From a virus (lineage: Duplodnaviria > Heunggongvirae > Uroviricota > Caudoviricetes), in the IMG/VR virus record IMGVR_UViG_3300001687_000010: DNA of 64,000 nt. One strand, given 5' to 3'. Of this stretch, positions 41,023 to 53,797 are shown piece by piece. Both the position numbers and the translations under genes were made by a program. The notes under the pieces are model-generated. The model was not told where the DNA came from. It did not search any database and worked only from the letters and a program-made list of their open reading frames with translations. Within the stretch, counting starts at the first letter, position 1; the number at the start of each line of letters is the position of its first letter.

Positions 41023-41482
41023 GTTTCAAGGATGGTTACAGCAAACAAAATCATTCCATTGTAAGGACGTGGTTGTGGGTTCGAGTCCCACTCCGTGGTT
41101 GTGGGTTCGAGTCCCACTCCCGGCCCCAAAATTATGGCCGGGATAGCTCAATGGGTAGAGCACGAAGATAATACCATCCTGACTTTTTAAGGGGCAGTCC
41201 CTGTTGGATATTTTTGCAAGAGGGTGTCTGGCAGGGGATTAAAATTTACCCTGCATAAGGATAATTACAGCAAAGAACACTTGGTTAAAGAGGTTCAATT
41301 CCTTACTGCCCCGCCAATTTTGGACCCTAAATGATGCTAATAGGGAATTAGCACTTTGTGAAGATAGGCCAATCTTTGTATGCAAAGTCCGGTTCGATTC
41401 CGGTGCGAAGCAGTGGACTGCATTTCTGTTAGCGCAGAAATTAGTTAGGTTCGATTCCTAACCGTTTAGGGTTTAATTTAAT

Positions 41483-43111: not shown

Positions 43112-43117
43112 TTAGTA

Positions 43118-43647: not shown

Positions 43648-43716
43648 AAAATAGGTGGGCTTCGGGGAACCAAGCCGGGAAAGGGATGGGTAATTTCTAT
43701 AAGAAAGGGCCAAACG

Positions 43717-43863
43717 ATGTCATCTAAAGAAATTGTCGTCAAAAACACGGAGTTAGAAGTTAACATTTATCCGGTTGTTATTTGCCCTAAATGCAATGAG
43801 GTTATGAAATTTAAACCGACTGGCAGAACGGGTGAAATGATTTGTGGGTGTAAAGATGAATAA
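43717..43863 (+). CDS. zinc-ribbon micro-protein (48 aa)
   Basis: CPKCN...CGC. Coordinates approximate. Not in the ORF track. Confidence 0.3.
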   Translation: MSSKEIVVKNTELEVNIYPVVICPKCNEVMKFKPTGRTGEMICGCKDE

Positions 43864-44218
43864 ATATGTTATCGCAATGACTATTGAAGATATGGGTTCA
43901 GGTGTTACCGATATCTATCAAGATGTTTTTAAAGGGGATAATAAATACGAAGCGTTAGGTCGGGCTTTTGAACGCTTTAGCCAAGCCGGTGTAGTCCATA
44001 AATATCAGGTCACATTGGTTGAGCGTGACGCAAGAAAAAATAGTTGGCCTGAACATCTTGATAAATACGCTAAATTTTTAAAAGAAGGGCAGAAAATACA
44101 GGCTATTAAATTCCGCCGAGAAGAAACTGGCGAGGGATTAAAGGATGCTAAACATTTTATCGACCATTTAGTTGATAAATATCCCGATATATATAAACGA
44201 CCAACTTCGGAGTGGTAA
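43856..44218 (+). CDS. hypothetical protein
   Basis: Starts at the internal ATG (MNKYVIAM...). Confidence 0.45.
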   Translation: MNKYVIAMTIEDMGSGVTDIYQDVFKGDNKYEALGRAFERFSQAGVVHKYQVTLVERDARKNSWPEHLDKYAKFLKEGQKIQAIKFRREETGEGLKDAKHFIDHLVDKYPDIYKRPTSEW

Positions 44219-44346
44219 AATGCCGATTAATGGGGGATGTTCCCGCTTGCGGTCTGTAAAACCGTTGCACGTAAAAAGAATTGTGGGTGGTTGTGCGAGT
44301 AGTTCGATTCTTCCATCCCCCACCACCAAAAAAAGAAAGGCCGATA

Positions 44347-44541
44347 ATGGATAAAGATAAGGCCGAAATTGTTATCGAAAAATGCCAAGCTCTGGCTACC
44401 GACAAAGGCGCAACTAAAGGTGAGCGAATTGTTGCTAACCATAAGGCGCAGACATTAATCGATAAGCATATAAACGATTCTAATATCTGGATAGCCGATA
44501 CCATATGGATGCCTGACGCATGGTTTATAAGAAAGGGATAA
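44347..44541 (+). CDS. hypothetical small protein
   Basis: Start at MDKDK, preceded by an A-rich SD. Confidence 0.4.
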   Translation: MDKDKAEIVIEKCQALATDKGATKGERIVANHKAQTLIDKHINDSNIWIADTIWMPDAWFIRKG

Positions 44542-44765
44542 ATGATTGATACCTTAATATTAATTGGTGGGTTTATCCTTGCTATGTATTGTGGTGTTAA
44601 AATTTGGTGCAGTAAAAGCCAGAGAGACAGCTTTTTGACCGAAGAAGAAAGGAATGCGCTAAATGGATATAAAGGACTTGATAAAGATTTGTAACACCTG
44701 TCCGTACCGGAATAAACAGGATAATATGTATTTTATGGCGTGGTGGTCACACTGCCAAAAAGAAT

Positions 44766-45041
44766 GTGAGTTATTGGCTAATGTGGAGAAGTTTAAAAAG
44801 AATTTTGAATCCTGACCTTGTTTATTGGATTGATAGCCATATTGAATATATTAAAGATTATTTTTATATTCTAAAAACCAATGTTGATTATGATTTAGGC
44901 TTACATCCAGACCATGATGCTTACAGGGAACCGGATGAAGATGAAAATATCTGGCGTTTAGAACGCATGGGTATTGAAAATCACGATTATTATAAAAAAG
45001 AATGGGTATGGGATAGCCGAAAAGATTGGGACGAAGGATAA
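44766..45041 (+). CDS. hypothetical protein
   Basis: 91-aa ORF. Confidence 0.4.
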   Translation: MSYWLMWRSLKRILNPDLVYWIDSHIEYIKDYFYILKTNVDYDLGLHPDHDAYREPDEDENIWRLERMGIENHDYYKKEWVWDSRKDWDEG

Positions 45042-45058
45042 ATGAAATGAACAAATAC

Positions 45059-45132
45059 GGCCCGTTAGTTTAGTGGTAAAATGGGTGGCTGTCGACCACT
45101 CGTTAGGGGTTCGATTCCCCTACGGGCCGCCA
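45059..45132 (+). tRNA. tRNA-Asp (anticodon GTC)
   Basis: Perfect acceptor GGCCCGT/ACGGGCC, anticodon stem GGTGG/CCACT with loop CTGTCGA, T-arm AGGGG-TTCGATT-CCCCT, CCA. Confidence 0.75.
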
Positions 45133-45153
45133 TTTAAAAATGTGAGGTGACTA

Positions 45154-45366
45154 ATGGATTGCCCTAAATGCAATTTTTGGATATCAGATAGAGTATCCGA
45201 ATTTTTTGACCATAAAAGAGGTATGGTTGTAAACAAATGGGTCTGTATAAATTGTGGCCATATTTATATCACAGAGGATAAAATCGAAGATGTACTGGGG
45301 GAAGTAAACAGCATTCCGCCAGAATATTATATAGACGACTGGGATGAAGATGATACCAGTATTTAG
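45154..45366 (+). CDS. zinc-ribbon small protein
   Basis: CPKCN...CINCG. Confidence 0.45.
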   Translation: MDCPKCNFWISDRVSEFFDHKRGMVVNKWVCINCGHIYITEDKIEDVLGEVNSIPPEYYIDDWDEDDTSI

Positions 45367-45443
45367 GAGTGTAGCCCAATTTGGCAGAGGCACATGGCTT
45401 AGAACCATGACAGTGATGGGTTCGAATCCCTCCACTCCTACCA
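45365..45443 (+). tRNA. tRNA with anticodon TAG (Leu-like); member of a paralog trio with identical 5' half
   Basis: Its 5' portion AGGAGTGTAGCCCAATTTGGCAGAGGCA matches the elements at 48482 and 57240. Anticodon stem CATGG/CCATG with loop CTTAGAA. Short variable arm. CCA. Confidence 0.55.
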
Positions 45444-45595
45444 GTTAAATTTATGTTTAGAAAAATACTAATAAAAATATTACTCAGATTAGAGTATATG
45501 GCCATTGATATTGCCGGTATATTTAACCGACTTCAGGTTAGGTTAAAAGGTACTCGATGGAAAATAGAAAAATATTGATTAGGAGAATTTGTGTT

Positions 45596-45913
45596 ATGAG
45601 TAGAAGTACAGAAGAATGGGAACAAGAAGTTATTAGCGTGTTAAAAGGAACATCCCCTGAAGAACCAATTACGGTTAGGGATATAGCCGATATTCTCGGC
45701 ATTAATGATGGCCCCAGTTGCCCTCGCACCAGAAAGTATATTCTGAGCGCAATGAAAAATAATAACGTGGCCATTGGTTCTAACCGCAAAGGATATTACC
45801 TTATTAAAACGGCTAAACAATGCCAAGAGTACCTTAACGAACTGTTAGGTCGCTCAGTGGCTTTATCCGAGCGAATCAAGATTACTTGGTACGCTTTTAA
45901 TGGAAGAAACTAA
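45596..45913 (+). CDS. putative winged-helix DNA-binding protein
   Basis: ITVRDIADILGI...; start at internal Met. Function uncertain. Confidence 0.4.
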   Translation: MSRSTEEWEQEVISVLKGTSPEEPITVRDIADILGINDGPSCPRTRKYILSAMKNNNVAIGSNRKGYYLIKTAKQCQEYLNELLGRSVALSERIKITWYAFNGRN

Positions 45914-45936
45914 TGAAAAAACTTAAACAGAATACT

Positions 45937-46012
45937 GGGTGTATAGCTCAACGGTAGAGCAACTGGCTCTTAACCAGTAGGTTGACGGGTTCAAATCCCT
46001 CTGCACCCACCA
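45937..46012 (+). tRNA. tRNA-Lys (anticodon CTT)
   Basis: D-arm GCTC-AACGGTA-GAGC, anticodon stem ACTGG/CCAGT with loop CTCTTAA, CCA. Confidence 0.7.
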
Positions 46013-46022
46013 AAATTTATGT

Positions 46023-46107
46023 GGGTCGTTGACCGAATGGTAAGGGGCTGGACTTTTAATCCAGTGGGTTTATCCCATTCCGGGTTCGAATCCCGGGCGG
46101 CCCACCA
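46023..46107 (+). tRNA. 85-nt tRNA with anticodon TTT and a long variable arm (unusual class-II-like Lys?)
   Basis: Acceptor GGGTCGT/GCGGCCC, anticodon stem CTGGA/TCCAG with loop CTTTTAA, variable hairpin GGG-TTTAT-CCC, T-arm CCGGG-TTCGAAT-CCCGG, CCA. Confidence 0.5.
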
Positions 46108-46125
46108 TATTCTGGATGTTTAAAA

Positions 46126-46485
46126 ATGGCTAATTTTCCAATAGGCATAATAATAGCCGGTGCTGTGGTTATTTATCTCGTTTATAGAAATGCGAAAAAA
46201 ATGCAGCAGGCGATTGATAATGCTAATAAACCAATAGTTTCCTATGCTGGTTATTTAAATAAATTATGTCTTATGACGAATAAATCGACATATGACATAT
46301 TTTATATAGCCGCAGAACCACATAAAATACCTAAATGGATGGTAGAAAAGGATTTTAGTAACTGGATTAAAAAATTTGGAGCTGATGATAAAATGCCTAA
46401 TTATGTTAAAGAATTTTTAGATGAAGGCAAGGAAATAATCGAGGAAGCATACGTTAACCCTTTTACATGGACATCAAAAATATGA
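46126..46485 (+). CDS. small membrane protein
   Basis: N-terminal TM FPIGIIIAGAVVIYLVY. Confidence 0.4.
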   Translation: MANFPIGIIIAGAVVIYLVYRNAKKMQQAIDNANKPIVSYAGYLNKLCLMTNKSTYDIFYIAAEPHKIPKWMVEKDFSNWIKKFGADDKMPNYVKEFLDEGKEIIEEAYVNPFTWTSKI

Positions 46486-46688
46486 ATGAGATTGGAATTA
46501 TACGACCTATTTTTGACGGCTCGGCATTTGATGGTATACTGCGCCTTTTTATCGGGAATGAAATGTTTTTATTCCCATTATTATTAATAGCGTTAATTTT
46601 GCTTTTGAAAGGACAATTAAAACCAAATGAAAAATCTAATATTCAAGAATCAGATGACGTTCAAAGGGACGATAACGAAAATAAGTGA
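46467..46688 (+). CDS. small membrane protein
   Basis: Hydrophobic core FLFPLLLIALILLL. Confidence 0.35.
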   Translation: MDIKNMNEIGIIRPIFDGSAFDGILRLFIGNEMFLFPLLLIALILLLKGQLKPNEKSNIQESDDVQRDDNENK

Positions 46689-46905
46689 TAACGATAATGC
46701 AGTGCGGACTCCTTCTATGGATGGTTATTTTGATAACTTACCTGAAATCGGTGAACGTTTTAATATAATCGGAGAATCGTTAACAAAAGGTTTAACGGCA
46801 CGATTGATATCGACCAGTCCGGTACAGGGAATGGATATAAGTGGTCGGTATATTATGTTTAAAACCGAAAATTCAGATTATACTTTAGAATACGAAATCA
46901 TTTAA
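46627..46905 (+). CDS. hypothetical protein
   Basis: 92-aa ORF. Confidence 0.4.
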   Translation: MKNLIFKNQMTFKGTITKISDNDNAVRTPSMDGYFDNLPEIGERFNIIGESLTKGLTARLISTSPVQGMDISGRYIMFKTENSDYTLEYEII

Positions 46906-46919
46906 GAAAGGATAAAACT

Positions 46920-47453
46920 GTGGCACGAGATGAATGGGGTCCAGATTTATGGGATTCCGGGCTTAGTGCTGAAGAGCGTCTGAAAGAATTTGAAAAACGG
47001 ATGAAGCGAGCGAGAGCTAAAATATCCGGTAGACGAATTCAACAAAGAGCAAATAATGCGCTAAAACGGACTGATAGAACATTAAAATATAACCCCAAAA
47101 CCGAAACGATTGAGGATGTCTGGAATACTAAATCAGATTATTCAAAATCAAATTATACAAAAAGGTTAAAACGTATGGCAAAAACAGCAGGTGGTATAAG
47201 TCTTGGTGGTATACTTTTTTGGGGCTTTATTATGTACCAATTATTTTGGGATAAAGATGAACCTAAAGAAGTTAAAGAAACACCTAAACCGATTGAACAA
47301 GTTAAAAAAACGGTTGAAAAGGTTAAAAACGATGTAGATAAAACCATCACAAAAGCTAAAGAAAAATTAAAAGAAGACCAAAAGAAGGAACCGGAATCGG
47401 ATTCTCCTTATGGGTCTAATGATGTTTACGGAGATACAAAAAGCAAATATTAA
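46920..47453 (+). CDS. membrane-anchored Lys-rich protein
   Basis: Central TM GGISLGGILFWGFIMYQLFW. Confidence 0.4.
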   Translation: MARDEWGPDLWDSGLSAEERLKEFEKRMKRARAKISGRRIQQRANNALKRTDRTLKYNPKTETIEDVWNTKSDYSKSNYTKRLKRMAKTAGGISLGGILFWGFIMYQLFWDKDEPKEVKETPKPIEQVKKTVEKVKNDVDKTITKAKEKLKEDQKKEPESDSPYGSNDVYGDTKSKY

Positions 47454-47456
47454 AAA

Positions 47457-47531
47457 GCCGGTATAGCTCAACAGGGAGAGCGGCCGCCTTGTAAGCGGTT
47501 GACCGGGGTTCGAGTCCTCGTTCCGGCTCCA
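47457..47531 (+). tRNA. tRNA-Thr (anticodon TGT)
   Basis: D-arm GCTC-AACAGGGA-GAGC, anticodon stem GCCGC/GCGGT with loop CTTGTAA, CCA. Confidence 0.7.
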
Positions 47532-47619
47532 AAAAAAATGAACTTTTTTTACTCAAAAGTGCGTCAACTAATATAAATAGTTATAAGGTGAGATAACCAC
47601 CTTTTATTAGTTTACGCTT

Positions 47620-48186
47620 ATGAGTAAATCAAAGAACGTAATTAACTGGAGACGGCGCACTAAAGAACGTATGGTCGCCGCCTTTGATAAAAAATGCTGT
47701 ATCTGCGGAAAAACCTACCCACAGGAATGTTTTGAATTCCATCATTTAGACCCTTCCGAGAAATCTTTTGGACTTGGTACAATTAGGTCAAATTGCATAT
47801 CATGGGAAAAAATAGTTGCGGAATTACGCAAGTGCGTTATGGTATGTGCTAATTGCCATCGGTTAGTCGAATATGGCTATATACAAATACCGTCCGACCC
47901 ATATATGTTTAATGAAAAATATACAGATTATAAAAAGAATTTTCCGACTCAGCAGCTTAAAACAGATAACTGCAGGTGCGGACGAAAAAAACCAGTGACG
48001 CAGAAATACTGCTCACGGGATTGTTATAACATATATAGACGGCATACTAATTGGCCGACTAAATATGAATTACGAGATTTACTTAAAGAACACTCCATGA
48101 AAAAAATCGGGCAATTATATGGAGTATCTGCTTCAGCGGTAAATAAATGGAAAAAATATTACGGATTAGGAGGTCGCAAAAAATGA
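47620..48186 (+). CDS. HNH homing-endonuclease-like protein
   Basis: Motifs CCICG...FEFHHLDPSEK...CANCHRLVEYG. C-terminal HTH-like tail. Confidence 0.75.
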   Translation: MSKSKNVINWRRRTKERMVAAFDKKCCICGKTYPQECFEFHHLDPSEKSFGLGTIRSNCISWEKIVAELRKCVMVCANCHRLVEYGYIQIPSDPYMFNEKYTDYKKNFPTQQLKTDNCRCGRKKPVTQKYCSRDCYNIYRRHTNWPTKYELRDLLKEHSMKKIGQLYGVSASAVNKWKKYYGLGGRKK

Positions 48187-48401
48187 CTATGCAATAAATT
48201 AACTAAAAAGGAGGTGCATAGTCAGTGCATAAGCGACCTCAAAAAAAATCCAGCCGAAAGGTTGGACGTGCGTCCCGTAAACCGGCACATAATCGCTATA
48301 ATCTTGAGCGAAGATGGGAACGGAATAAAGAGAGACGTATTGCTAAACAAGCCCGTAAAGAAGCGAAGAAAGCTGCTAAAAAAGCACAAAAAAATGAGTA
48401 A

Positions 48402-48478
48402 GCCGGGATAGTTTAAGGCGGATAAAACACATCCTTGGTACGGATGAGATTCGGGTTCGAATCCCGGTGCTGGCTCCA
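48402..48478 (+). tRNA. tRNA-Thr (anticodon GGT)
   Basis: D-arm GTTT-AAGGCGGATA-AAAC, anticodon stem CATCC/GGATG with loop TTGGTAC, CCA. One acceptor mismatch. Confidence 0.6.
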
Positions 48479-48481
48479 TAT

Positions 48482-48560
48482 GGCGGAGTAGCCCAACTTG
48501 GCAGAGGCATACGGTTTAAGCCCGTAAAAGTGATGGGTTCGAATCCCTCCTCCGCTACCA
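48482..48560 (+). tRNA. tRNA with anticodon TAA (Leu-like); trio member
   Basis: 5' half GGCGGAGTAGCCCAACTTGGCAGAGGCA. Anticodon stem TACGG/CCGTA with loop TTTAAGC. Short variable arm. CCA. Confidence 0.55.
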
Positions 48561-48597
48561 GTTTTTAAGGTTGATTACAGCAAACAACTATGGCGAA

Positions 48598-48669
48598 ACC
48601 GGATATTGCTGGTTCGAATCCAGCCTCCCCTACTTGAAGGGGAGTGACCTAAGTGGTAAAGGTGCCGGT
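48598..48669 (+). ncRNA. circularly-permuted tRNA-like element (3' half precedes 5' half)
   Basis: Order: ACCGG-ATATT, then T-arm GCTGG-TTCGAAT-CCAGC, then CTCCCCT, then a 6-nt linker, then AGGGGAG-TG-ACCT-AAGTGGTAA-AGGT-G-CCGGT. The acceptor (7/7), D-arm and anticodon stem (5/5) are all complementary only across the permutation. Confidence 0.4.
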
Positions 48670-48734
48670 CAAAAAATATCAACCTGTATTTATTACTTAG
48701 TATGTCGGTTTTTTGCCGACATTGGGAGATTAAA

Positions 48735-49103
48735 ATGGCGGATAGATTAACGCATAATGCAGATTGCTTTGCTATTTTAGGCGAAGAATTTGACCATGTT
48801 AACGGATGGTTAGATGCTTGTGCCGCAAAATACCCGCCTCCCTTGTTTTTAGAGTATCATCGAAAATTCCGCCACCACGATAGGGGTGTTAAAGAAGTAC
48901 GCCAAAAATGGGGAATAAAAGCGGAAGAAGCGGCAAAAATCCATATTATTCGGGATGTAGAGATTTATATAAACAGAGAAGGAAAGCCGTTTATAGAATA
49001 CTGCACTTATGATAAATTGGATAAAATTTATAAACAAGCCTTAAAATACTGCCACGATTGGCAGGGGCCGCTTGATGAACGTTGGTTAAAAGGTTTAAAA
49101 TAG
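48735..49103 (+). CDS. hypothetical protein
   Basis: Start at MADRL with a GGGAGA SD. 122 aa. Confidence 0.45.
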   Translation: MADRLTHNADCFAILGEEFDHVNGWLDACAAKYPPPLFLEYHRKFRHHDRGVKEVRQKWGIKAEEAAKIHIIRDVEIYINREGKPFIEYCTYDKLDKIYKQALKYCHDWQGPLDERWLKGLK

Positions 49104-49175
49104 CCCCTTAGTAGACTGGTATAACGTCTGCCTTACAAGCAGAAGAAGATGGTTCGATTCCTTCAGGGGCTACCA
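49102..49175 (+). tRNA. tRNA-Val (anticodon TAC)
   Basis: Perfect acceptor AGCCCCT/AGGGGCT, anticodon stem TCTGC/GCAGA with loop CTTACAA, CCA. D-arm ambiguous. Confidence 0.6.
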
Positions 49176-49179
49176 GTTT

Positions 49180-49271
49180 GCTCCGGTAGTTTAACGGTAA
49201 AACGGCGTCCTTATAAGGCGTAAACTCCAGATTAGAGTGAGTTGCTGGTTCGAATCCAGCCCGGAGTACCA
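49180..49271 (+). tRNA. 92-nt class-II-like tRNA with apparent anticodon TAT
   Basis: D-arm GTTT-AACGGTA-AAAC, anticodon stem GCGTC/GGCGT with loop CTTATAA, long variable arm ACTC...GAGT, T-arm GCTGG-TTCGAAT-CCAGC, CCA. Confidence 0.5.
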
Positions 49272-49276
49272 CATAT

Positions 49277-49351
49277 AGCCCGTTGGTGAAATGGGAACAC
49301 GGAAGGCTTTGACCCTTTCATGACTTGGTTCGATTCCAAGGCGGGCTTCCA
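49277..49351 (+). tRNA. tRNA-Gln (anticodon TTG)
   Basis: Anticodon stem GAAGG/CCTTT with loop CTTTGAC, T-arm CTTGG-TTCGATT-CCAAG, CCA. Confidence 0.65.
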
Positions 49352-49378
49352 CTTAAATAAATATATTTAGGTGGGAAA

Positions 49379-49492
49379 ATGCCGAAAAAATGCGATAAAT
49401 GTAAAGAAAAAACGTATTGCTTCTATCCTTGGAAAAAGGATAAATGGATTTGTGGCGAATGTAAAGATAAAGAACGAGATAAACGCAAATAA
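49379..49492 (+). CDS. zinc-ribbon micro-protein (37 aa)
   Basis: AGGTGGG SD. CDKCK...CGEC. Confidence 0.4.
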   Translation: MPKKCDKCKEKTYCFYPWKKDKWICGECKDKERDKRK

Positions 49493-49496
49493 TATG

Positions 49497-49570
49497 GTGG
49501 GGTTAGGCTAATGGTAAGCCGAGAGGTTGTGGCCCTCTTGATACGGGTTCGATTCCCGTACCTCACCCCA
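49497..49570 (+). tRNA. tRNA-His (anticodon GTG) with encoded G-1
   Basis: Acceptor GTGGGGT/ACCTCAC preceded by G(-1), opposite discriminator C. Anticodon stem AGAGG/CCTCT with loop TTGTGGC. CCA. Confidence 0.7.
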
Positions 49571-49588
49571 ATTTTTTAAGAAGAAGTG

Positions 49589-49617
49589 TTTACAATTAAA
49601 CACTTTTTTTGTATAAT
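49589..49617 (+). promoter_or_regulatory. promoter GTGTTTACAAT-N17-TATAAT
   Basis: Consensus -35-like TTTACA and perfect TATAAT with a 17-nt spacer. Confidence 0.55.
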
Positions 49618-49653
49618 ATAAAAGGGAATTTTTATGAAAGGAATCTAATTTGT

Positions 49654-49914
49654 ATGGCTGTCCGAAAAGCGAAAAAAGTGCTAAAAAAGGTTGACAAAAG
49701 TTTTGGTAGAGTTTATTGTCTTGACGGAAAATACCATAAATGGGAATGGATGTTTACAGACCATTTCGGTGGCAAAATCAAATGGTGCGAAAAATGCGGT
49801 AGTTTAACCGAATTTAAGCCCGGAACACGTTGGTCAGAGGGTAAACGGGTTACGGATAAAAATAAGAAACCTTATATTAAAATGCCTCAATTAGCCAGTG
49901 TATCCAAGAGGTAA
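49654..49914 (+). CDS. zinc-ribbon small protein (start at MAVRK)
   Basis: Start lies downstream of the promoter. CLDG...CEKCG. The 3' end overlaps tRNA-Cys. Confidence 0.4.
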   Translation: MAVRKAKKVLKKVDKSFGRVYCLDGKYHKWEWMFTDHFGGKIKWCEKCGSLTEFKPGTRWSEGKRVTDKNKKPYIKMPQLASVSKR

Positions 49915-49968
49915 GGCGACTGCCTGCAAAGCAGTTTGTTTACGGTTCGACTCCGTACACTGGCTCCA
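49894..49968 (+). tRNA. tRNA-Cys (anticodon GCA)
   Basis: Perfect acceptor GCCAGTG/CACTGGC, anticodon stem ACTGC/GCAGT with loop CTGCAAA, T-arm TACGG-TTCGACT-CCGTA, CCA. Confidence 0.7.
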
Positions 49969-49987
49969 AAAGAAAGGAAGGTGTAAG

Positions 49988-50389
49988 GTGAAGAAATTGT
50001 TTATTATTTTCGGAATCATTCTTGGAATCGGCCTTAATGTACATGGCGATGAAACAGCAAATATTACTTTAGCATGGGATGCTAATGAAGAACCCGAAAT
50101 AACAGGCTATAACCTTTATACCAAACACCACGTTAACGAAACATATACGCTATTAAGTGAAATTTTAGAAGAGGATTTAGATAATCCTCTCATGCCTCAA
50201 ATTAAAATATGGGGCTTAGATAAAAACCTTACTCATTATTTTGTATGTACCGCTAAAACAGAAACGCAGGAAAGCGAATTCTCAAAAGAAGTGATATGGA
50301 CAGCAGAAAACGCTAATAATGGTACAGCACAAAAAACTAATGGAAGCACAGGTGGCGGATGTTTTATAAGTACAATAATGCGCCCGTAG
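49988..50389 (+). CDS. secreted fibronectin-type-III-like domain protein
   Basis: GTG start after an AAGGAAGG SD. Signal peptide MKKLFIIFGIILGIGLNVHG. NITLAWDANEEPEITGYNLY is an FN3-like signature. Confidence 0.5.
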   Translation: MKKLFIIFGIILGIGLNVHGDETANITLAWDANEEPEITGYNLYTKHHVNETYTLLSEILEEDLDNPLMPQIKIWGLDKNLTHYFVCTAKTETQESEFSKEVIWTAENANNGTAQKTNGSTGGGCFISTIMRP

Positions 50390-50455
50390 CAAAGCGGAAT
50401 TGCAACAGTCTTCTAAACTGTTAAGACGAAGGTTCGAGTCCTTCCGGGCGTACCA
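50380..50455 (+). tRNA. tRNA-Arg (anticodon TCT)
   Basis: Anticodon stem ACAGT/ACTGT with loop CTTCTAA, T-arm GAAGG-TTCGAGT-CCTTC, CCA. Overlaps the previous CDS stop. Confidence 0.65.
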
Positions 50456-50458
50456 TAT

Positions 50459-50533
50459 GGCCCCATCGTCTAACGGTTAGGATGTTGCCCTCTCACGGCA
50501 GAGATATGGGTTCGAATCCCGTTGGGGCTACCA
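50459..50533 (+). tRNA. tRNA-Glu (anticodon CTC)
   Basis: Acceptor GGCCCCA/TGGGGCT, anticodon loop CTCTCAC, CCA. Colinear with canonical tRNA-Glu. Confidence 0.7.
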
Positions 50534-50788
50534 AATGGAGAGTTAAAAATGACTATATATTGTGGTTATTGCCATAAGAACATGACTAACGAAAAGTACG
50601 AAAATCATATGTGCTTAAAATGGGTATGGGAACGTATAAAGAGAAAATTCAATGGATGGAATATATTTAAAAAATAAACCGGAAATCCAAAAGCAAATGT
50701 GGCTATGGATGGAAGAAATGCAAGACCGACATCCCCATATAGAATTCGGATGGTGGGGATTTATGCCGTGCATTATTGTGAGGGAATT

Positions 50789-50905
50789 ATGAAAAAAGAA
50801 AAATACTATTGTACTTATTGCGGCCATGAAGTAGAAATTGGTCAAAAATCAAAAGATAAAGGCCAATGTTCAAATTGCGGATGGCGGATACTGAAAAAAG
50901 AATAA
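50789..50905 (+). CDS. zinc-ribbon micro-protein
   Basis: CTYCG...CSNCG. Start chosen at the internal Met. Confidence 0.4.
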   Translation: MKKEKYYCTYCGHEVEIGQKSKDKGQCSNCGWRILKKE

Positions 50906-51099
50906 TGTACTATTGTCGATATTGTGGAGCAAAATTTGTAAACATATGGTTAAAACCATATTGTCCTAAATGCGGTAAAATAAATCCAAATTTTGTAACA
51001 AGACCGCAGTTAGAAAAATTAGCTATAAAGATGACCAAAAAACAAATGGATTTAGTTTTTAAAAAGAGTTATAGAAAGGAAAATTATATGGCCCCGTAG
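50881..51099 (+). CDS. zinc-ribbon small protein
   Basis: CRYCG...CPKCG. Confidence 0.4.
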   Translation: MADTEKRIMYYCRYCGAKFVNIWLKPYCPKCGKINPNFVTRPQLEKLAIKMTKKQMDLVFKKSYRKENYMAP

Positions 51100-51166
51100 C
51101 TCAACTGGACGAGCCTCCGGCTACGAACCGGAGTGTATGCAGGTTCGAGTCCTGTCGGGGCTTCCA
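51090..51166 (+). tRNA. tRNA-Arg (anticodon ACG)
   Basis: Perfect acceptor GGCCCCG/CGGGGCT, D-arm GCTC-AACTGGAC-GAGC, anticodon stem TCCGG/CCGGA with loop CTACGAA, CCA. Confidence 0.75.
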
Positions 51167-51270
51167 TTAAAATGAAAATATTATTTTTAACAATATTAAC
51201 AACTATGTTTTTATGGGGGATACCTTTATTTGCTATAATCCCGTTATTAATAATATATGTAATGATATTT

Positions 51271-51345
51271 TGCCCTGTGGTGTAACGGTAACACGCAAGA
51301 CTCTGAATCTTGTAGCTTCTGGTTCGAATCCAGACGGGGCAGCCA
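51271..51345 (+). tRNA. tRNA-Gln (anticodon CTG)
   Basis: D-arm GTGT-AACGGTA-ACAC, anticodon stem CAAGA/TCTTG with loop CTCTGAA, T-arm TCTGG-TTCGAAT-CCAGA, CCA. Confidence 0.7.
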
Positions 51346-51357
51346 AAAAGGAGAGGG

Positions 51358-51597
51358 ATGAAACTTTTAGACAAAAAGTTTATGAATGATAAACTTCGGG
51401 ATATTATTCGACTTGGTTCTGTCTTATTGCTTGCCATCCCTTGTATTATATTAGGAGTTGGATTAATATTTGCTCAAATATTTTTTGAAAAGAAGGTGGG
51501 AAATATACGGCTAAATAATATAAAGGAGAAATTGTATGCCGTTATTTCACTGTGTAAAATGCCATCACGAATGGGAAGGCATATTAGAAAAAAATAA
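51358..51597 (+). CDS. small membrane protein
   Basis: TM LGSVLLLAIPCIILGVGLIFAQIFF. Confidence 0.4.
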   Translation: MKLLDKKFMNDKLRDIIRLGSVLLLAIPCIILGVGLIFAQIFFEKKVGNIRLNNIKEKLYAVISLCKMPSRMGRHIRKK

Positions 51598-51718
51598 TCC
51601 TATATGCGACTGGTGCGGGGCGCACGGTTATATTATAGAAGAAAAAACGCCATTTGAAAAAATGATTGAAGATTTAGAATGTTCTGATTGGAATATTGAC
51701 GAATTTTTAAAAATTTAA
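51536..51718 (+). CDS. zinc-ribbon micro-protein
   Basis: CVKCHH...CDWCG. Confidence 0.4.
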   Translation: MPLFHCVKCHHEWEGILEKNNPICDWCGAHGYIIEEKTPFEKMIEDLECSDWNIDEFLKI

Positions 51719-51734
51719 GAAAGGGGATGTGGCC

Positions 51735-51884
51735 ATGTTTAAAATTAAAACAATTACATATAAAATTGAATGTGAATGTGGATGTACCTTTTCAGCATCT
51801 CGTGAAGAAAATAAAAGTATATTTTTTAAATGCCCCGGATGTGATAAAAAAGGCGGAATAAATCCGAAAGAAAAAATAAATTAA
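51735..51884 (+). CDS. zinc-ribbon micro-protein (49 aa)
   Basis: GGGGATG SD. ECECGC...CPGC. Coordinates approximate. Confidence 0.35.
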   Translation: MFKIKTITYKIECECGCTFSASREENKSIFFKCPGCDKKGGINPKEKIN

Positions 51885-51966
51885 TCAGCAAAAATGTTAT
51901 TTTTAACAACAAAAAAAGATAAATAAGAGTAAGAAAGGGGAAATACGTTAAGGGAGTTTTAACAAT

Positions 51967-53162
51967 TTGGATAAAATACTTTTAGGTGATTGTGAAGAAC
52001 AACTAAAGGGGTTAGAGAACGAAAGTGTAGACCTAATAGCAAGGCCGTCCCTAAAGTAAGCATATGGAAGGAATGTTTAAGGGTATTAAAACCCGGAGGA
52101 TTTGCATTTGTAATGAGTGCACCTCGCCAAGATGTTTGGGCAAGGATGGTTTTTAATTTAGAAGAAGCCGGATTTAAATCAGATTTTACGCCTATATTTT
52201 GGGCATATCGTACTGGATTTCCGAAGCCGATTAATATTAGTAAGGCTATTGATAGGAGAGAAGGTGCAGAAAGACCTGTTTTAGGGGAGCATAAATCAGG
52301 TATTGGTAAAGCATTTAGTGGAGATGGAACTTGGGGAACTGGTTCCGAAACCGTTTTTGATACCGCACCGGCCACAGAAGAAGCCAAAGAAGCTGATGGA
52401 TGGTTTGGTGGATATCAACCCAAGCCTGCGGTAGAGGTTATTATAGTGGCTATGAAACCGTTATCCGAAAAAACTTATGTTGACCAGTGGCTTAAAAATA
52501 AAAGAGGTTCGACAAATTTAGATGCGGTTAGAGTGCCTTATGATGACGATAAAGACCGCAAAAGTTTTGGGGATATACGAGAATGGGCTGCTAAAAATAC
52601 AGATACGAGTAAAATGTTTGGTGATTTGCCGTATGTAGAATACGCAACCAGTGATAAAGGTCGATTTCCCGGCAATTTAATTATATCCGATAAAGCCCTT
52701 ACAGATGATTTTGCTAAGATTTTTAGCCTCGATAAATGGGGACAGGAATTTGAGTTTTTACAAAATTACCCATTTTTAACGGTAGCAAAACCAAGCCGGT
52801 CAGAACGTGATGAGGGTTTAGAAGATTCTGATTTAGAGAAAAAAGAACTTAATATCAAATCCGGTATGGCCGGTATGCTCGGTGATTGTGGTGAAGCGCA
52901 AAATATACACCCAACGGTTAAGCCAGTTAAACTTATGGCGTATTTAATTGTTTTAGCGAGTCATCCGGGCGATACTATATTAGACCCGTTTGTGGGTTCC
53001 GGTACGACCTGTATAGCGTCCGCTCATTTAAACCGGAGAACTATTGGTATAGAACTTGACCCGGAATATCATAAAATAGCGCAAGCCCGTTTAGACGTGG
53101 CTTTAGATAAAGCGAGTAGCGTACAAAAAAATGATGATAAAATTGATAGTTTGTTTGAATGA
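51967..53162 (+). pseudogene. N4/N6 DNA methyltransferase (PF01555-like) that is disrupted
   Basis: N-terminal frame (TTG at about 51967): LDKILLGDCEEQLKGLENESVDLIARPSLK then a stop. The expected DPPY motif is missing. The C-terminal frame (track ORF 52113-53162) carries ...WKECLRVLKPGGFAFV... and motif I ILDPFVGSGTTCIAS. Confidence 0.6.
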
Positions 53163-53419
53163 GAAGAGCTGAACGCATTAAAAACAATAAAATATTGTTA
53201 GCCTATGGTAAGCGGATTTGCTCTGTATGTGAGGATACCAAAGATTTAAAGGAATTCCCTTATCAGGGGCCAAAATTAGGCTTTTACGGTAAGTGCCGTG
53301 ATTGTTTGAATAAAGAGATGTATTTATCTTATCAGGAAGAACGGCGTGAATGGAACCGTAAGCGCAAAGAACGGGAAGAGCAGGCTAAAAATGATAAAAT
53401 CGATACTTTGTTCAAATAA
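53159..53419 (+). CDS. hypothetical protein with CxxC...CxxC
   Basis: 86-aa ORF. Its C-terminus KNDKIDTLFK repeats the MTase C-terminus KNDDKIDSLFE. Confidence 0.4.
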   Translation: MRRAERIKNNKILLAYGKRICSVCEDTKDLKEFPYQGPKLGFYGKCRDCLNKEMYLSYQEERREWNRKRKEREEQAKNDKIDTLFK

Positions 53420-53797
53420 AGGCCAGATAGGAGAATTGCTTTTTTATTGTTTTATTGCTGCAATCATAGGCATATTGGCATGGGAAGGTTTAGAGTGGTT
53501 AACTGAATGGTTTAATGCCCATTTTACGGTAATTTGGAAATGAAAAAGAAAAAAATATACGACAAAGAAAAACACGAACTTCAAAAAGCGTTGAGGATTC
53601 CTACCGCTAAAAAGGGACAGGTGTTTAAAGATAAAACCAAATATACTCGAAAGAAAAAACATAAACGAAGGCTGGGACAAGACTAAAGAGTCTCTGTCCC
53701 AGCCTTCGCCGCACCACTGTGCGTGGCTAACAGTAGCTTGTGCATATTTCGCCCCGCTGAAGCAAATGGATTATAACACATAATTGGTGAATTGTAA

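What the first reader, a model, noticed from the sequence alone, without database searches (positions are those of the whole stretch)
48561..48680. Candidate circularly permuted tRNA gene
The elements read 5' to 3' as follows:
- ...CTATGGCGAA then ACCGG (anticodon-stem 3' strand).
- ATATT (variable).
- GCTGG-TTCGAAT-CCAGC (T-arm).
- CTCCCCT (acceptor 3' strand), then A, then the linker CTTGA.
- AGGGGAG (acceptor 5' strand), then TG.
- ACCT-AAGTGGTAA-AGGT (D-arm with canonical A14/G18G19/A21 positions), then G.
- CCGGT (anticodon-stem 5' strand), then CAAAAAATATC...
Every helix is perfectly complementary, but only if the 3' half, which lies upstream, pairs with the 5' half, which lies downstream. 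This is the arrangement described for permuted tRNA genes in Cyanidioschyzon. To my knowledge it is not described in phages.
The anticodon loop would have to be created by processing or ligation of the two outer ends. Alternatively the molecule functions as a nicked tRNA-like structure.
The GATTACAGCAAA motif lies just upstream at 48573.
Basis: seen in the sequence. Interest (0 to 1): 0.7.

Follow-up and report, generated by a model that had tools for sequence, protein, structure and literature searches.

The report
Phage Y RNA-like tRNA mimic
What looks like a scrambled (circularly permuted) tRNA gene is a small phage RNA of the known Y RNA-like (YrlA) kind, a tRNA-shaped module set into a conserved stem-and-motif handle that in other phages lies beside a Ro60-like protein gene, but here no such gene was found nearby.

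Summary
At 48598-48669 (+) every tRNA helix is perfectly paired in permuted order: anticodon-stem 3' strand, V loop, T arm, acceptor hairpin closed by a 6-nt loop, D arm, anticodon-stem 5' strand.

It is not a Cyanidioschyzon-type permuted tRNA gene. There is no anticodon loop. The two ends run into an 8-bp helix (48568-75/48678-85) plus a conserved UUACAGCAAAC motif.

That "handle" defines a modular RNA cassette found in more than 60 phage contigs. In all 32 contigs that also carry a ~475-aa DUF2828/DUF7788 gene, the cassettes lie on the same strand, 15-656 nt away. That protein's predicted fold best matches Ro60, and mycobacteriophages annotate it "Ro-like".

A covariance model trained only on cassettes from other contigs scores this element at 79 bits, a second window copy (41023-41186) at 78 bits and an independent Ro-linked mycobacteriophage YrlA at 76 bits. 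The next window hit scores 24.5 bits.

So it is a YrlA-class Y RNA-like tRNA mimic. It is unusual in lying in the tRNA cluster of a T4-like phage with no Ro60-like gene in ~84 kb, and it is absent from syntenic relatives.

Side leads: some cassettes carry whole permuted tRNAs with varied anticodons, and the handle resembles Dictyostelium Class I RNAs.

The parts
48562..48691 (+). Whole RNA unit E2: handle plus tRNA-like module. It starts 2 nt after the CCA of tRNA-Leu(UAA), which ends at 48560.
   Evidence: Full-length match (model positions 1-127) to covariance model R1, which was trained on other contigs only: 79.0 bits, E 3.8e-13. ARAGORN coordinates of the upstream tRNA.
48568..48575 (+). 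Outer (terminal) helix, 5' strand AGGUUGAU.
   Evidence: Pairs perfectly with 48678-48685. Pairing probability is 0.79-1.0 in the ensemble. The same helix covaries across contigs.
48576..48585 (+). Conserved single-stranded handle motif UACAGCAAAC. With the preceding U it reads UUACAGCAAAC.
   Evidence: There are only 3 exact TTACAGCAAA copies in the window, all in the tRNA cluster. The bases T, C and AGCAA are invariant in alignment A3. ACAGCAA is also present in the three Ro-linked mycobacteriophage units.
48592..48597 (+). GGCGAA, which matches the GNCGAA core of the YrlA Ro60-binding motif (GNCGAAN0-1G). The trailing G is missing.
   Evidence: Sequence. Motif definition from PMC4201824. 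It is not a shared feature of the other cassettes, so its significance is uncertain.
48598..48602 (+). Anticodon-stem equivalent, 3' strand ACCGG (tRNA positions 39-43). It closes the tRNA-like module.
   Evidence: Pairs with 48665-48669. The Ro-linked mycobacteriophage YrlA has the same ACCGG closing strand.
48603..48607 (+). Variable loop AUAUU (tRNA positions 44-48). U48 can form the Levitt pair with A15.
   Evidence: Sequence. The A15:U48 alternative of the Levitt pair is noted for YrlA RNAs in PMC4201824.
48608..48624 (+). T arm GCUGG-UUCGAAU-CCAGC.
   Evidence: The T stem covaries in the family.
48625..48644 (+). Acceptor-stem mimic: a 7-bp hairpin, CUCCCCU with AGGGGAG, closed by ACUUGA. 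The first A of the loop is in the discriminator position. No CCA is encoded.
   Evidence: Pairing probability 0.94-1.0. All 7 pairs of this helix show compensatory changes across the family.
48645..48664 (+). U8-G9, D arm ACCU-AAGUGGUAA-AGGU, and G26.
   Evidence: A14, G18, G19 and A21 are in place.
48665..48669 (+). Anticodon-stem equivalent, 5' strand CCGGU (tRNA positions 27-31).
48678..48687 (+). Outer helix 3' strand AUCAACCU, followed by the conserved GU tail.
   Evidence: GU follows the closing strand in 50 of 70 perfectly closed units. It is not among the six commonest dinucleotides after the 25 control closings.
41023..41186 (+). Second copy of the same RNA class in the window (E1). 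It starts directly after the CCA of tRNA-Glu. The outer helix is 41029-36 with 41173-80. The T-arm segment is tandemly duplicated (26 nt, twice). The acceptor hairpin is TCCCGGC-C-CCA-AAATTATG-GCCGGGA. The D arm is GCTC-AATGGGTA-GAGC.
   Evidence: R1: 78.4 bits. Rfam YrlA: 37.4 bits. Its outer helix differs from E2's by two compensatory changes.

Best explanation
E2 is a stable non-coding RNA of about 125 nt of the YrlA (Y RNA-like) class. It is not a tRNA gene.

Shown:
- It lies on the same strand as the tRNA cluster and starts 2 nt after an upstream tRNA's CCA.
- It can fold into two modules.
- Module 1 is a handle: an 8-bp terminal helix, a single-stranded UUACAGCAAAC, and a 3' GU tail.
- Module 2 is a tRNA-shaped module (anticodon stem, V loop, T arm, loop-capped acceptor stem, D arm) that keeps the tRNA tertiary-contact nucleotides. 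The permuted order follows simply from the module being opened at the anticodon end and closed at the acceptor end.
- The handle is shared by a large family of phage cassettes. In every contig where a Ro60-like (DUF2828 + vWA) gene is visible, the cassettes lie next to it on the same strand.

Inferred:
- The handle is the binding platform for a Ro60-like protein, by analogy with the GNCGAA module of YrlA and with the Thermus phage Ro60-Yrl complex.
- The RNA is released from the tRNA-cluster transcript by the nucleases that trim tRNA trailers.
- As in other Y RNAs, it tethers or gates the Ro60-like ring. Its tRNA-like module engages tRNA-recognising factors or an exonuclease such as PNPase during infection.
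- Because it has a 7-bp acceptor stem and A73, like M. smegmatis YrlA, RNase P may nick the cap loop, and the phage's own CCA-adding enzyme (22672-24009) may extend the new 3' end. That would give a two-piece tRNA-like RNP.

The protein partner is either encoded elsewhere in this phage or supplied by the host.
For: Rfam:
- The best Rfam match is YrlA, not tRNA, covering exactly the tRNA-like module.
- A genuine Ro-linked mycobacteriophage YrlA also scores only 37.9 bits against that model.

Held-out covariance model R1:
- E2 scores 79.0 bits, E1 78.4, and the independent Ro-linked mycobacteriophage RNA 76.0.
- The next window hit scores 24.5 bits.

Family covariation:
- 96.9% of cells are paired, against 67.5% in shuffles and 40-48% when partners are slid.
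- 107 compensatory cells against 36 expected.

Linkage to the protein:
- The handle is found in 61 of 77 viral contigs pulled by the motif.
- A DUF2828/DUF7788 gene is present in 32 of them, always on the same strand, 15-656 nt from the nearest cassette.
- Mycobacteriophage gp54, annotated 'Ro-like RNA binding protein', belongs to this family (E 3e-116). It is followed by three handle-framed RNAs.

Protein fold:
- The AF2 model has pLDDT 85.9.
- Its five best PDB matches are all Ro60/TROVE proteins, aligned full length, E 2e-8 to 5.5e-5.

Literature:
- YrlA architecture, Ro60 binding, and RNase P cleavage with CCA addition for a 7-bp acceptor stem (PMC4201824).
- Phage Ro60 binds phage Y RNA-like RNAs and engages host PNPase (PMC12135203).

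Window context:
- A CCA-adding enzyme is encoded in the window.
- No + strand promoter-like or terminator-like site lies between the upstream tRNAs and E2.
Against: - No Ro60-like (DUF2828) or TROVE gene was found in the 64-kb window: six-frame hmmsearch at maximum sensitivity with the DUF2828-family profile, and Pfam scans (which would also detect TROVE) of 23 of the 28 ORFs of at least 180 aa, including every one above 300 aa.
- None was found in about 10 kb beyond either end. In Chen et al., location within 4 kb of Ro60 was one of the reporting criteria for YrlA candidates.
- E2 is below Rfam's gathering score (25.7 against 69).
- Its D arm (ACCU/AGGU) departs from the near-invariant GCUC/GAGC of YrlA.
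- E2 is absent from syntenic relatives.
- The only other copies are from the same phage and are identical, so E2 has no covariation support of its own.
- Expression, RNA ends, protein binding and function are all untested.
Confidence: 0.8

Rival explanations
1. It is a genuine circularly permuted tRNA gene. The transcript's outer ends are cut and ligated (possibly through a circular intermediate). RNase P and 3' processing then open the acceptor cap, giving a functional decoding tRNA.
For: - All helices are perfect and the tRNA tertiary nucleotides are kept.
- Among sister cassettes, 11 of 24 (10 distinct sequences) contain a complete anticodon arm: 7-nt loop, U33, purine 37, with anticodons GAU, GAA, UGU, GGA, GUA, GCU, CCA and AAU. 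Most are followed by a canonical 4-5-nt variable loop.
- The window's tRNA set lacks Trp.
- Relatives encode RNA ligase, and the window encodes a CCA-adding enzyme.
Against: - E2 has no anticodon loop at all. Joining its ends would have to create one from CAAAAAAU... and ...GGCGAA, with the conserved handle lying in between.
- There is no bulge-helix-bulge junction.
- No splicing endonuclease or RtcB was found among the window ORFs scanned.
- The handle also frames payloads with no tRNA parts.
- It is genetically tied to a Ro60-like RNA-binding protein, not to processing enzymes.
- The same design in bacteria (YrlA) is bound intact by Ro60 (PMC4201824).
Confidence: 0.04
2. It is a tRNA decoy that works without any Ro60-like protein. 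The L-shaped module soaks up host tRNA-directed nucleases or modification enzymes (for example anticodon nucleases used in anti-phage defence), and the handle only provides stability or processing signals.
For: - No Ro60-like gene was found in about 84 kb around E2.
- E2 and E1 sit in a tRNA cluster, a genomic setting associated with countering tRNA-targeting defences (background knowledge).
- Sister cassettes display anticodon arms with varied anticodons.
Against: - E2 itself lacks an anticodon loop, which is the target of anticodon nucleases.
- The handle's sequence is conserved far beyond what a stability stem needs.
- It is strictly linked to a Ro60-like gene wherever the neighbourhood is visible.
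- This reading overlaps with the main explanation. A Ro60-bound Y RNA could also act as a decoy.
Confidence: 0.1
3. It is a non-functional relic of tRNA gene rearrangement: the junction of two tandem copies of one tRNA (3' half of copy 1 plus 5' half of copy 2) left behind by duplication and deletion.
For: - E1's cap loop reads C-CCA plus an 8-nt spacer, exactly like a tandem-tRNA junction, and E1 carries a 26-nt tandem duplication.
- E2's acceptor stem AGGGGAG/CTCCCCT-A nearly equals that of the tRNA-Leu(UAA) found at this position in relative L092.
- E2 is missing from relatives.
Against: - Both elements are framed by the conserved handle with compensatory changes between them.
- They score about 79 bits against a model built from unrelated contigs.
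- The family shows strong covariation in every helix.
- A tandem-tRNA junction probably explains the evolutionary origin of the tRNA-like module, not its present state.
Confidence: 0.04
4. It is a permuted (two-piece) tmRNA-like gene, or the 59-codon ORF 48571-48750 that runs through it encodes a protein.
For: - There is a weak Rfam hit to tmRNA_permuted (12.9 bits, E 0.74).
- The handle contains GCA-AAC, reminiscent of the start of tmRNA tags.
- The ORF is listed.
Against: - ARAGORN, which detects permuted tmRNAs, finds none.
- Reading from GCA gives no consistent short tag across cassettes. E2 has no nearby stop codon.
- A full D arm is present, unlike tmRNA.
- The ORF starts with TTG, has no family support, and overlaps a covarying RNA structure.
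Confidence: 0.01

Closest known systems
YrlA (Y RNA-like A) RNAs of bacteria and mycobacteriophages (Rfam RF02553; Chen et al. 2014, PMC4201824)
   Same: - Same 5'-to-3' order: closing stem, V region, T arm, loop-capped acceptor-stem mimic, D arm.
- tRNA tertiary nucleotides are retained.
- A conserved motif lies near the 5' end, next to a terminal helix.
- The mycobacteriophage example (L085 3456-3595) has the same handle (stem-ACAGCAA...stem-AGU) and the same ACCGG closing stem, and scores like E2 against model R1.
   Different: - No Ro60-like gene within 4 kb; none was found in about 84 kb.
- E2 scores below Rfam's gathering score, as the mycobacteriophage RNA does.
- The handle motif is UUACAGCAAAC, not GNCGAAN0-1G. 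E2 additionally carries GGCGAA.
- The D stem is ACCU/AGGU instead of GCUC/GAGC.
- E2 is embedded in the tRNA array of a distant T4-like phage.
Thermus phage phiLo Ro60 with its Y RNA-like Yrl1/Yrl2 (PMC12135203; PDB 9KOP, 9L5Y)
   Same: - A phage-encoded Ro60-type ring protein is paired with phage-encoded RNAs built as a 5'-3' stem plus an internal loop with a short conserved motif.
- The DUF2828 model's best structural matches include this protein.
   Different: - The Yrls were found next to the Ro60 gene.
- They are described as stem-bulge-stem RNAs with a CGAA motif, not as tRNA mimics.
- E2 has no adjacent Ro60-like gene and carries a full tRNA-like module.
Circularly permuted tRNA genes of Cyanidioschyzon merolae and other algae or archaea
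   Same: The 3' half of the tRNA lies upstream of the 5' half, and the acceptor strands are joined by a short linker.
   Different: - Those genes encode a complete tRNA, with the anticodon loop reconstituted at the junction.
- They are processed through a bulge-helix-bulge motif by the splicing endonuclease and a ligase.
- E2 has no anticodon loop and no BHB. Its ends continue into a conserved non-tRNA handle.
Dictyostelium Class I RNAs (Rfam RF01414; Kjellin et al. 2021, PMC7919456)
   Same: The handle has the same layout: start (A)AG, a short covarying terminal stem, the motif (C)UUACAGCAA directly 3' of the 5' strand, a variable interior, and the end CUGU. Minimal phage cassettes match the Rfam model end to end at 27-34 bits.
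   Different: - The matches are below the gathering score (41.5).
- Class I RNAs are eukaryotic, 42-65 nt long, have their own DUSE promoter, and are reported as unique to Dictyostelia.
- Their known binding protein is an RRM protein.
- Homology or a shared partner is untested.
Small stable RNAs encoded in the phage T4 tRNA cluster (species 1 and 2, rnaC/rnaD; background knowledge, not checked here)
   Same: They are non-tRNA stable RNAs, co-transcribed and co-processed with phage tRNAs in a T4-type tRNA cluster, and their function is unknown.
   Different: No sequence or structural comparison was made here, and no link to Ro60-like proteins is known to me.

Membership tests
YrlA / bacterial and phage Y RNA-like RNAs | tRNA-like domain with the order V region, T arm, capped acceptor-stem mimic (AS), D arm, closed by a stem | tested here: met
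   - Sequence reading and structural scanner with 0 mismatches.
- The Rfam YrlA alignment covers model positions 23-85.
- Architecture as described in PMC4201824.
YrlA / bacterial and phage Y RNA-like RNAs | Nucleotides for tRNA tertiary interactions, including a covarying 15:48 Levitt pair | tested here: met
   U8, A14, A15:U48, G18, G19, A21, G53:C61, U54, U55, C56 and A58 are all present in E2. The criterion comes from PMC4201824.
YrlA / bacterial and phage Y RNA-like RNAs | GNCGAAN0-1G motif near the 5' end (presumed Ro60 contact) | tested here: inconclusive
   - GGCGAA is at 48592-97, but is followed by AC, not (N)G.
- The sister cassettes and the mycobacteriophage units instead share ACAGCAA.
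- cmscan aligns ACAGCAA to YrlA's ACGGCGAA position.
YrlA / bacterial and phage Y RNA-like RNAs | Encoded within about 4 kb of a Ro60 orthologue, on the same strand | tested here: not met
   - No DUF2828 homologue in the six-frame window search.
- No TROVE or DUF2828 hit in the Pfam scans of the window's larger ORFs.
- None in about 10 kb beyond each end.
YrlA / bacterial and phage Y RNA-like RNAs | Rfam RF02553 gathering score (69 bits) | tested here: not met
   E2 scores 25.7 bits and E1 37.4 bits. The genuine Ro-linked mycobacteriophage YrlA scores only 37.9 bits, so the threshold misses the whole phage subclass.
YrlA / bacterial and phage Y RNA-like RNAs | Bound by Ro60/Rsr in vivo | not testable with these tools
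   This needs immunoprecipitation or EMSA.
   - E2 has AGGUUGAU-UACAGCAAAC...AUCAACCU-GU.
   - R1 scores E2 at 79.0 bits (E 3.8e-13).
- The independent Ro-linked positive control scores 76.0 bits.
- The best other window hit scores 24.5 bits.
   - Seen in 32 of 32 contigs where the gene is present, but the gene is absent from the window and its flanks.
- 29 of the 61 cassette contigs also show no such gene in the stretch fetched.
Circularly permuted tRNA genes (Cyanidioschyzon type) | The 3' half lies upstream of the 5' half, with acceptor strands joined by a short linker | tested here: met
Circularly permuted tRNA genes (Cyanidioschyzon type) | Joining the transcript ends gives a complete tRNA with a 7-nt anticodon loop | tested here: not met
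   Beyond the 5-bp stem, the sequences are CAAAAAAU on the 3' side and UACAGCAAACAACUAUGGCGAA on the 5' side. They are followed by an 8-bp helix, and no anticodon loop can be formed.
Circularly permuted tRNA genes (Cyanidioschyzon type) | Bulge-helix-bulge motif at the junction, and a splicing endonuclease to cut it | tested here: not met
   - The junction is an 8-bp helix with a 22/8-nt internal loop.
- No endonuclease or RtcB family turned up among the window ORFs scanned. That scan is incomplete for small ORFs.
Circularly permuted tRNA genes (Cyanidioschyzon type) | Circular RNA intermediate and a mature aminoacylated tRNA | not testable with these tools
   This needs RT-PCR across the junction and acid-gel Northern blots.
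Dictyostelium Class I RNA (RF01414) | Short terminal stem, 11-nt motif next to the 5' strand, conserved AAG start and CUGU end | tested here: met
   - E2 handle: A-AGGUUGAU-UACAGCAA...AUCAACCU-GU.
- Rfam consensus: GaUcuC-CUUACAGCAA...GagAuC-UG.
- The termini are described in PMC7919456.
Dictyostelium Class I RNA (RF01414) | Length 42-65 nt, DUSE promoter, dictyostelid origin, Rfam gathering score 41.5 | tested here: not met
   - E2 is about 125 nt and lies in a phage tRNA cluster.
- Minimal cassettes reach at most 33.8 bits.
- This is a resemblance only.
Two-piece (permuted) tmRNA | Detected by ARAGORN or Rfam; tag reading frame; no D stem | tested here: not met
   - ARAGORN finds none.
- RF04321 gives 12.9 bits.
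- A full D arm is present, and there is no consistent tag ORF across cassettes.

The most novel reading that the evidence does not exclude
The UUACAGCAA handle is a general docking module for a very large, uncharacterised branch of Ro60-like proteins (DUF2828 + vWA; at least 4,831 clusters). Phages use it as a plug-in cassette to present swappable RNA payloads. The payloads include YrlA-type mimics such as E2, and complete tRNAs circularly permuted at position 26|27 with different anticodons.

Orphan copies such as E1 and E2, seeded among tRNA genes, would act with a Ro60-like protein encoded elsewhere in the phage or by the host.

The same handle in Dictyostelium Class I RNAs would mean that those abundant RNAs, reported as dictyostelid-specific, are Y RNA-type partners of a Ro60-like protein.
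Probability: 0.25. Interest if true: 0.8.

Novelty: new member of a known kind. Interest (0 to 1): 0.5.

Why it matters
For this locus:
- It removes a false lead. There is no evidence for eukaryote-style permuted tRNA maturation in a phage.
- It adds two unannotated Y RNA-like genes (E1, E2) to a phage tRNA cluster, which standard tools (ARAGORN, Rfam at gathering score) miss.

More broadly:
- The held-out model and the gene linkage show that phage YrlA-type RNAs belong to a much larger modular cassette family, tied to a Ro60-like protein family that Pfam still lists as DUF2828/DUF7788.
- That gives a concrete handle (stem-UUACAGCAA...stem-GU) for finding Y RNAs that current models miss.
- It also raises a question: why would a phage keep Y RNA-like tRNA mimics inside its tRNA array with no Ro60-like gene nearby?
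- If the handle really is the Ro60-like docking site, the resemblance to Dictyostelium Class I RNAs makes the long-open question of their function directly testable.

Tried and rejected
Searches that found nothing useful:
- Nucleotide searches of GenBank phages with the locus: megablast found nothing, and blastn found only generic T-arm matches.
- Relatives of the downstream ORF in viral contigs: none.
- An E2-specific T-loop...D-loop pattern in viral contigs: no hit.
- Relatives of the upstream HNH-like ORF (L001-L007): no cassette.
- Full-text search for the motif sequence: only unrelated primers and siRNAs.
- The supplements of Chen et al. 2014 are not held.

Hypotheses rejected:
- tmRNA-like tag reading from GCA-AAC: the ORFs are inconsistent across cassettes.
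- A known small self-cleaving ribozyme in the handle: no Rfam ribozyme family hit, even at E up to 10.
- A split DUF2828 or Ro60 in the adjacent window ORFs 61309-62037 and 62037-62759 (weak VWA hit): no significant match to the family HMM.
- An alternative helix UUACAG/CUGUUA, as the YrlA model aligns it. It is topologically incompatible with the strongly covarying outer helix and has only one possible covariation (L046), so I did not adopt it.

Tests that gave no information:
- Conservation of E2 in relatives. Three other assemblies are the same phage and identical. Four diverged relatives lack it, so E2 has no covariation of its own.
- The AlphaFold-database fold search, meant to see whether Dictyostelium has a DUF2828 protein: the library was unavailable.
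Full report
**Observation**

- ACCGG / ATATT
- GCTGG-TTCGAAT-CCAGC
- CTCCCCT-ACTTGA-AGGGGAG
- TG
- ACCT-AAGTGGTAA-AGGT
- G / CCGGT

All 21 pairs are Watson-Crick. If the module is numbered as a tRNA, the universal tertiary nucleotides are in place: U8, A14, A15:U48, G18, G19, A21, G26:A44, G53:C61, U54, U55, C56 and A58.

A purpose-written scanner for this permuted layout recovers the element with no mismatch. 50 shuffles of the 64-kb window gave only four hits, even with up to two mismatches allowed.

ARAGORN and Rfam's tRNA model find 29 and 28 ordinary tRNAs in the window (40341-57405, all on the + strand) and nothing at this site.

The tRNA-like fold is 2.4 kcal/mol above the MFE. Real tRNAs of this window also fail to give a cloverleaf MFE.

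- The flanks pair: AGGTTGAT (48568-75) with ATCAACCT (48678-85).
- The "upstream" GATTACAGCAAA motif sits directly after the 5' strand of that helix, so it is part of the RNA.
- In sensitive mode, the best Rfam family for the region is YrlA (Y RNA-like). The match is 25.7 bits, covers only the tRNA-like module, and is far below the gathering score of 69.
- The scanner found a second element of the same design at 41023-41186 (E1). E1 scores 37.4 bits against YrlA.
- Both elements start right after the CCA of a tRNA and share the leader GTTTnnAAGGnTGnTTACAGCAAACAA.
- Their outer helices differ by two compensatory changes: AGGATGGT/ACCATCCT against AGGTTGAT/ATCAACCT.
- The exact motif occurs only three times in the window, all in the tRNA cluster.

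**A widespread cassette**

Searching viral contigs with AGGNTNNTTACAGCAAASAA returned 77 loci. In 61 of them the motif is followed, 13 to about 210 nt later, by the complement of the five variable stem bases plus CCT.

An unbiased count gives these figures:
- 148 distinct 5' motifs;
- 70 of them have a perfect 8-bp closing strand, against 25 for a shuffled-stem control;
- GU follows the real closing strands in 50 of 70 cases, although it was not used for selection, and it is not among the six commonest dinucleotides after the 25 control closings;
- 37 different stem sequences are used.

The units usually follow a tRNA's CCA, are often tandem, and carry very different payloads:
- simple hairpins;
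- an anticodon-like hairpin plus a T arm;
- a colinear D-anticodon-T body;
- in about 27 distinct cases, the permuted T arm / capped acceptor / D arm module.

Every tight-capped permuted module lies inside a handle. The unframed scanner hits all have CCA-containing loops, so they are tandem-tRNA junctions.

The unconstrained MFE folds of nearly all of the 24 units reproduce the same five-way junction.

In 11 of the 24 units (10 distinct sequences) the hairpin upstream of the T arm is a canonical anticodon arm with varied anticodons, in most cases followed by a 4-5-nt variable loop. These are whole tRNAs permuted at 26|27.

In E2 and in L024, the anticodon stem itself closes the module and runs on into the handle.

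**The linked protein**

Clustering all ORFs of the cassette loci gave one dominant family, present in 32 loci, with a median length of 474 aa. It matches Pfam DUF2828 + DUF7788.

In all 32 loci the cassettes are on the gene's strand, and the nearest lies 15-656 nt away.

A BLAST match of E1's module in Mycobacterium phage Kingsolomon lies 143 nt downstream of gp54, annotated "Ro-like RNA binding protein".
- gp54 matches my family HMM at E 3e-116. In Pfam it matches DUF2828, DUF7788 and VWA_2, but not TROVE.
- The intergenic region after gp54 holds three handle-framed units (GGAC...-ACAGCAA-...-...GUCC-AGU).
- The middle unit has the same design as E2, including an ACCGG closing strand.

The family is very large, with at least 4,831 clusters.

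An AlphaFold2 model (pLDDT 85.9) has Ro60/TROVE proteins as its five best PDB matches. They align over the full length, with E from 2e-8 to 5.5e-5 and TM up to 0.62. The matches are:
- the TROVE domain 9KOP;
- the Thermus phage phiLo Ro60 9L5Y (two chains);
- Xenopus Ro 1YVR;
- human Ro60 9NEN.

All later hits are vWA-only.

**Formal membership test**

I aligned 16 tRNA-like cassettes from other contigs, leaving out E1 and E2.

On the hand-drawn structure (outer helix, T, acceptor hairpin, D), one search gives:
- 96.9% of cells paired, against 67.5% in shuffles and 40-48% with slid partners;
- 107 compensatory cells against 36 expected;
- all seven acceptor-hairpin pairs covary.

The covariance model built from this alignment (R1) scores as follows:
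- E2: 79.0 bits (48562-48691);
- E1: 78.4 bits;
- the independent Ro-linked mycobacteriophage RNA: 76.0 bits;
- the next window hit, a tandem-tRNA junction: 24.5 bits.

Rfam's YrlA model gives the genuine mycobacteriophage RNA only 37.9 bits. So failing Rfam's threshold is a property of the whole phage subclass.

Over 753 kb of cassette loci, R1 finds 86 matches:
- about 33 score at least 55 bits and have tRNA-like payloads;
- a tail at 36-50 bits matches through the handle alone.

**What is missing here**

- No DUF2828 homologue exists in the six-frame translation of the window.
- No TROVE or DUF2828 hit appears in the Pfam scans of the window's larger ORFs. These covered 23 of the 28 ORFs of at least 180 aa, including all above 300 aa.
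- The precomputed Pfam annotation shows none in about 10 kb beyond either end.
- The phage is a very distant T4-like lineage. Its DNA polymerase is about 29% identical to those of cyano- and pelagimyoviruses.
- Three other metagenome assemblies carry the same phage with E2 unchanged.
- A syntenic relative (L092) has the same tRNA order and a neighbouring protein 64% identical, but only an 89-nt spacer where E2 sits.
- Three further relatives also lack a cassette there.
- E2 is therefore a lineage-specific insertion with no covariation of its own. Its support comes from the family.
- In bacterial and archaeal genomes a stringent form of the handle is almost absent: 8 hits in 596 Gb.

**Mechanism**

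Shown:
- the two-module architecture;
- membership in the class;
- linkage of the class to a gene with a Ro60-like fold.

Taken from the literature:
- YrlA RNAs bind Ro60/Rsr through their terminal module.
- Their tRNA-like domain is recognised by TruB and DusA.
- A phage Ro60 binds phage Y RNA-like RNAs and forms ternary complexes with host PNPase (PMC12135203).
- Jumbo phages with TROVE proteins are noted to have a tRNA-like partner (PMC7824862).

Inferred for E2:
- It is co-transcribed with the tRNAs. No + strand promoter-like or terminator-like site intervenes.
- It is released by tRNA trailer processing.
- A Ro60-like protein docks on the handle.
- The L-shaped module engages tRNA-recognising factors.
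- RNase P may nick the cap loop, and the phage's CCA-adding enzyme may extend the end. This is more likely for E1, whose cap loop already encodes C-CCA.

**Rivals**

- A true permuted tRNA gene is very unlikely for E2. There is no anticodon loop, no BHB and no endonuclease, and the handle is shared with non-tRNA payloads.
- A Ro-independent tRNA decoy cannot be excluded, because no Ro60-like gene was found nearby.
- A dead rearrangement relic is contradicted by the handle and the family covariation. A tandem-tRNA junction is still a plausible evolutionary origin, given E1's CCA-plus-spacer loop and E2's acceptor stem matching the neighbouring tRNA-Leu lineage.
- tmRNA-like and protein-coding readings are rejected.

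**Comparison and novelty**

E2 is a new member of a known kind, the phage and bacterial YrlA-type Y RNAs.

Points I could not find described in the held literature:
- the UUACAGCAA handle as the common frame of a large, modular phage cassette family;
- its linkage to DUF2828/DUF7788 proteins as a Ro60-like branch (DUF2828 has five incidental mentions);
- cassettes carrying complete permuted tRNAs with varied anticodons;
- orphan copies inside a tRNA array.

The handle also matches Rfam's Dictyostelium Class I RNA consensus in stem, motif and termini. That class is reported as unique to dictyostelids, and no paper links it to Ro60. I could not test whether Dictyostelium has a DUF2828 protein, so this remains a lead.

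Noticed in passing
window 41023-41186 (+): A second, unannotated YrlA-class cassette (E1) lies directly after tRNA-Glu. It has a 26-nt tandem duplication of the T-arm segment (41068-41093 and 41094-41119). An anticodon-like hairpin (loop AUUGUAA) lies upstream. Its acceptor cap loop encodes C-CCA plus an 8-nt spacer, like a tandem-tRNA junction.
   Followed up: yes
window 41180-41482 (+): This region holds unexplained structured RNA(s) between E1 and tRNA-Ala. A third TTACAGCAAA (41265) lies inside a possible tRNA-like RNA with an acceptor-type helix, GGGGCAGT...ACTGCCCC-G-CCA (about 41191-41312). It is followed by a long-range helix, CCCTAAATG/CGTTTAGGG, enclosing two T-arm-like hairpins (about 41321-41476). 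The fold z-score is -4.6. No closing strand for a regular handle was found.
   Followed up: partly
window 44231-44322 (+): This is probably a non-canonical tRNA-Tyr(GUA) missed by ARAGORN. The acceptor is GGGGGAUG/CAUCCCCC-A-CCA and the anticodon loop is CUGUAAA, with a long extra region. Rfam tRNA-Sec gives 29.8 bits. With it, only Trp is missing from the phage's tRNA set.
   Followed up: partly
viral contigs, e.g. L029 268-392(-), L037 719-846(-), L018 8844-8970(+), L027 4885-5012(+), L014 4612-4737(-): These cassettes carry a complete tRNA circularly permuted at position 26|27: anticodon arm, V loop, T arm, capped acceptor, D arm. The anticodons differ between otherwise similar units (GAU, GAA, UGU, GGA, GUA, GCU, CCA, AAU). 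One subfamily has an invariant UUGGUC cap loop.
   Followed up: partly
L056 3620-3671(-), 2256-2307(-), 11453-11507(-), 2113-2165(-): Minimal cassettes (about 55-65 nt) match Rfam Dicty_Class_I_RNA (RF01414) end to end at 27-34 bits, below the gathering score of 41.5. They share the terminal stem, the UUACAGCAA motif and the CUG(U) end with a class reported as unique to dictyostelid amoebae.
   Followed up: partly
32 viral contigs (e.g. L010 1292-2743(+), L069, L079) and L085 1919-3358: Pfam DUF2828 + DUF7788 proteins (about 475 aa; at least 4,831 clusters in public data) have a predicted Ro60-like fold. They include the mycobacteriophage 'Ro-like' proteins, although Pfam TROVE does not match them.
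   Followed up: yes
L055 5748-6218 (+): A GOLLD RNA (Rfam 176.5 bits, above the gathering score) sits inside a phage tRNA array that also carries several cassettes.
   Followed up: no
12 viral contigs, e.g. L037, L051, L071: A calcineurin-like metallophosphoesterase of about 200 aa is the second most frequent neighbour of the cassettes. In some contigs it starts right after a cassette. An RNase H-like protein (PF04308) recurs in 8 loci.
   Followed up: no
L022 2558-2954 (-): Three tRNA-like cassettes lie in tandem (R1 scores 71, 57 and 97 bits), on the same strand as the Ro60-like gene of that contig and within a few hundred nt of it.
   Followed up: no
window 22672-24009 (+); 61309-62759 (+): The phage encodes its own CCA-adding enzyme (PolyA_pol + HD). 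Two adjacent ORFs of 242 and 240 aa, the second with a weak VWA hit, are not related to the Ro60-like family.
   Followed up: partly
L092 2319-2396 (+) versus window 48625-48644: The tRNA-Leu(UAA) of a syntenic relative has the acceptor stem GGGGGAG/CTCCCCT-A. That is almost identical to E2's capped acceptor AGGGGAG/CTCCCCT-A, which suggests that E2's tRNA-like part derives from the neighbouring tRNA lineage.
   Followed up: partly
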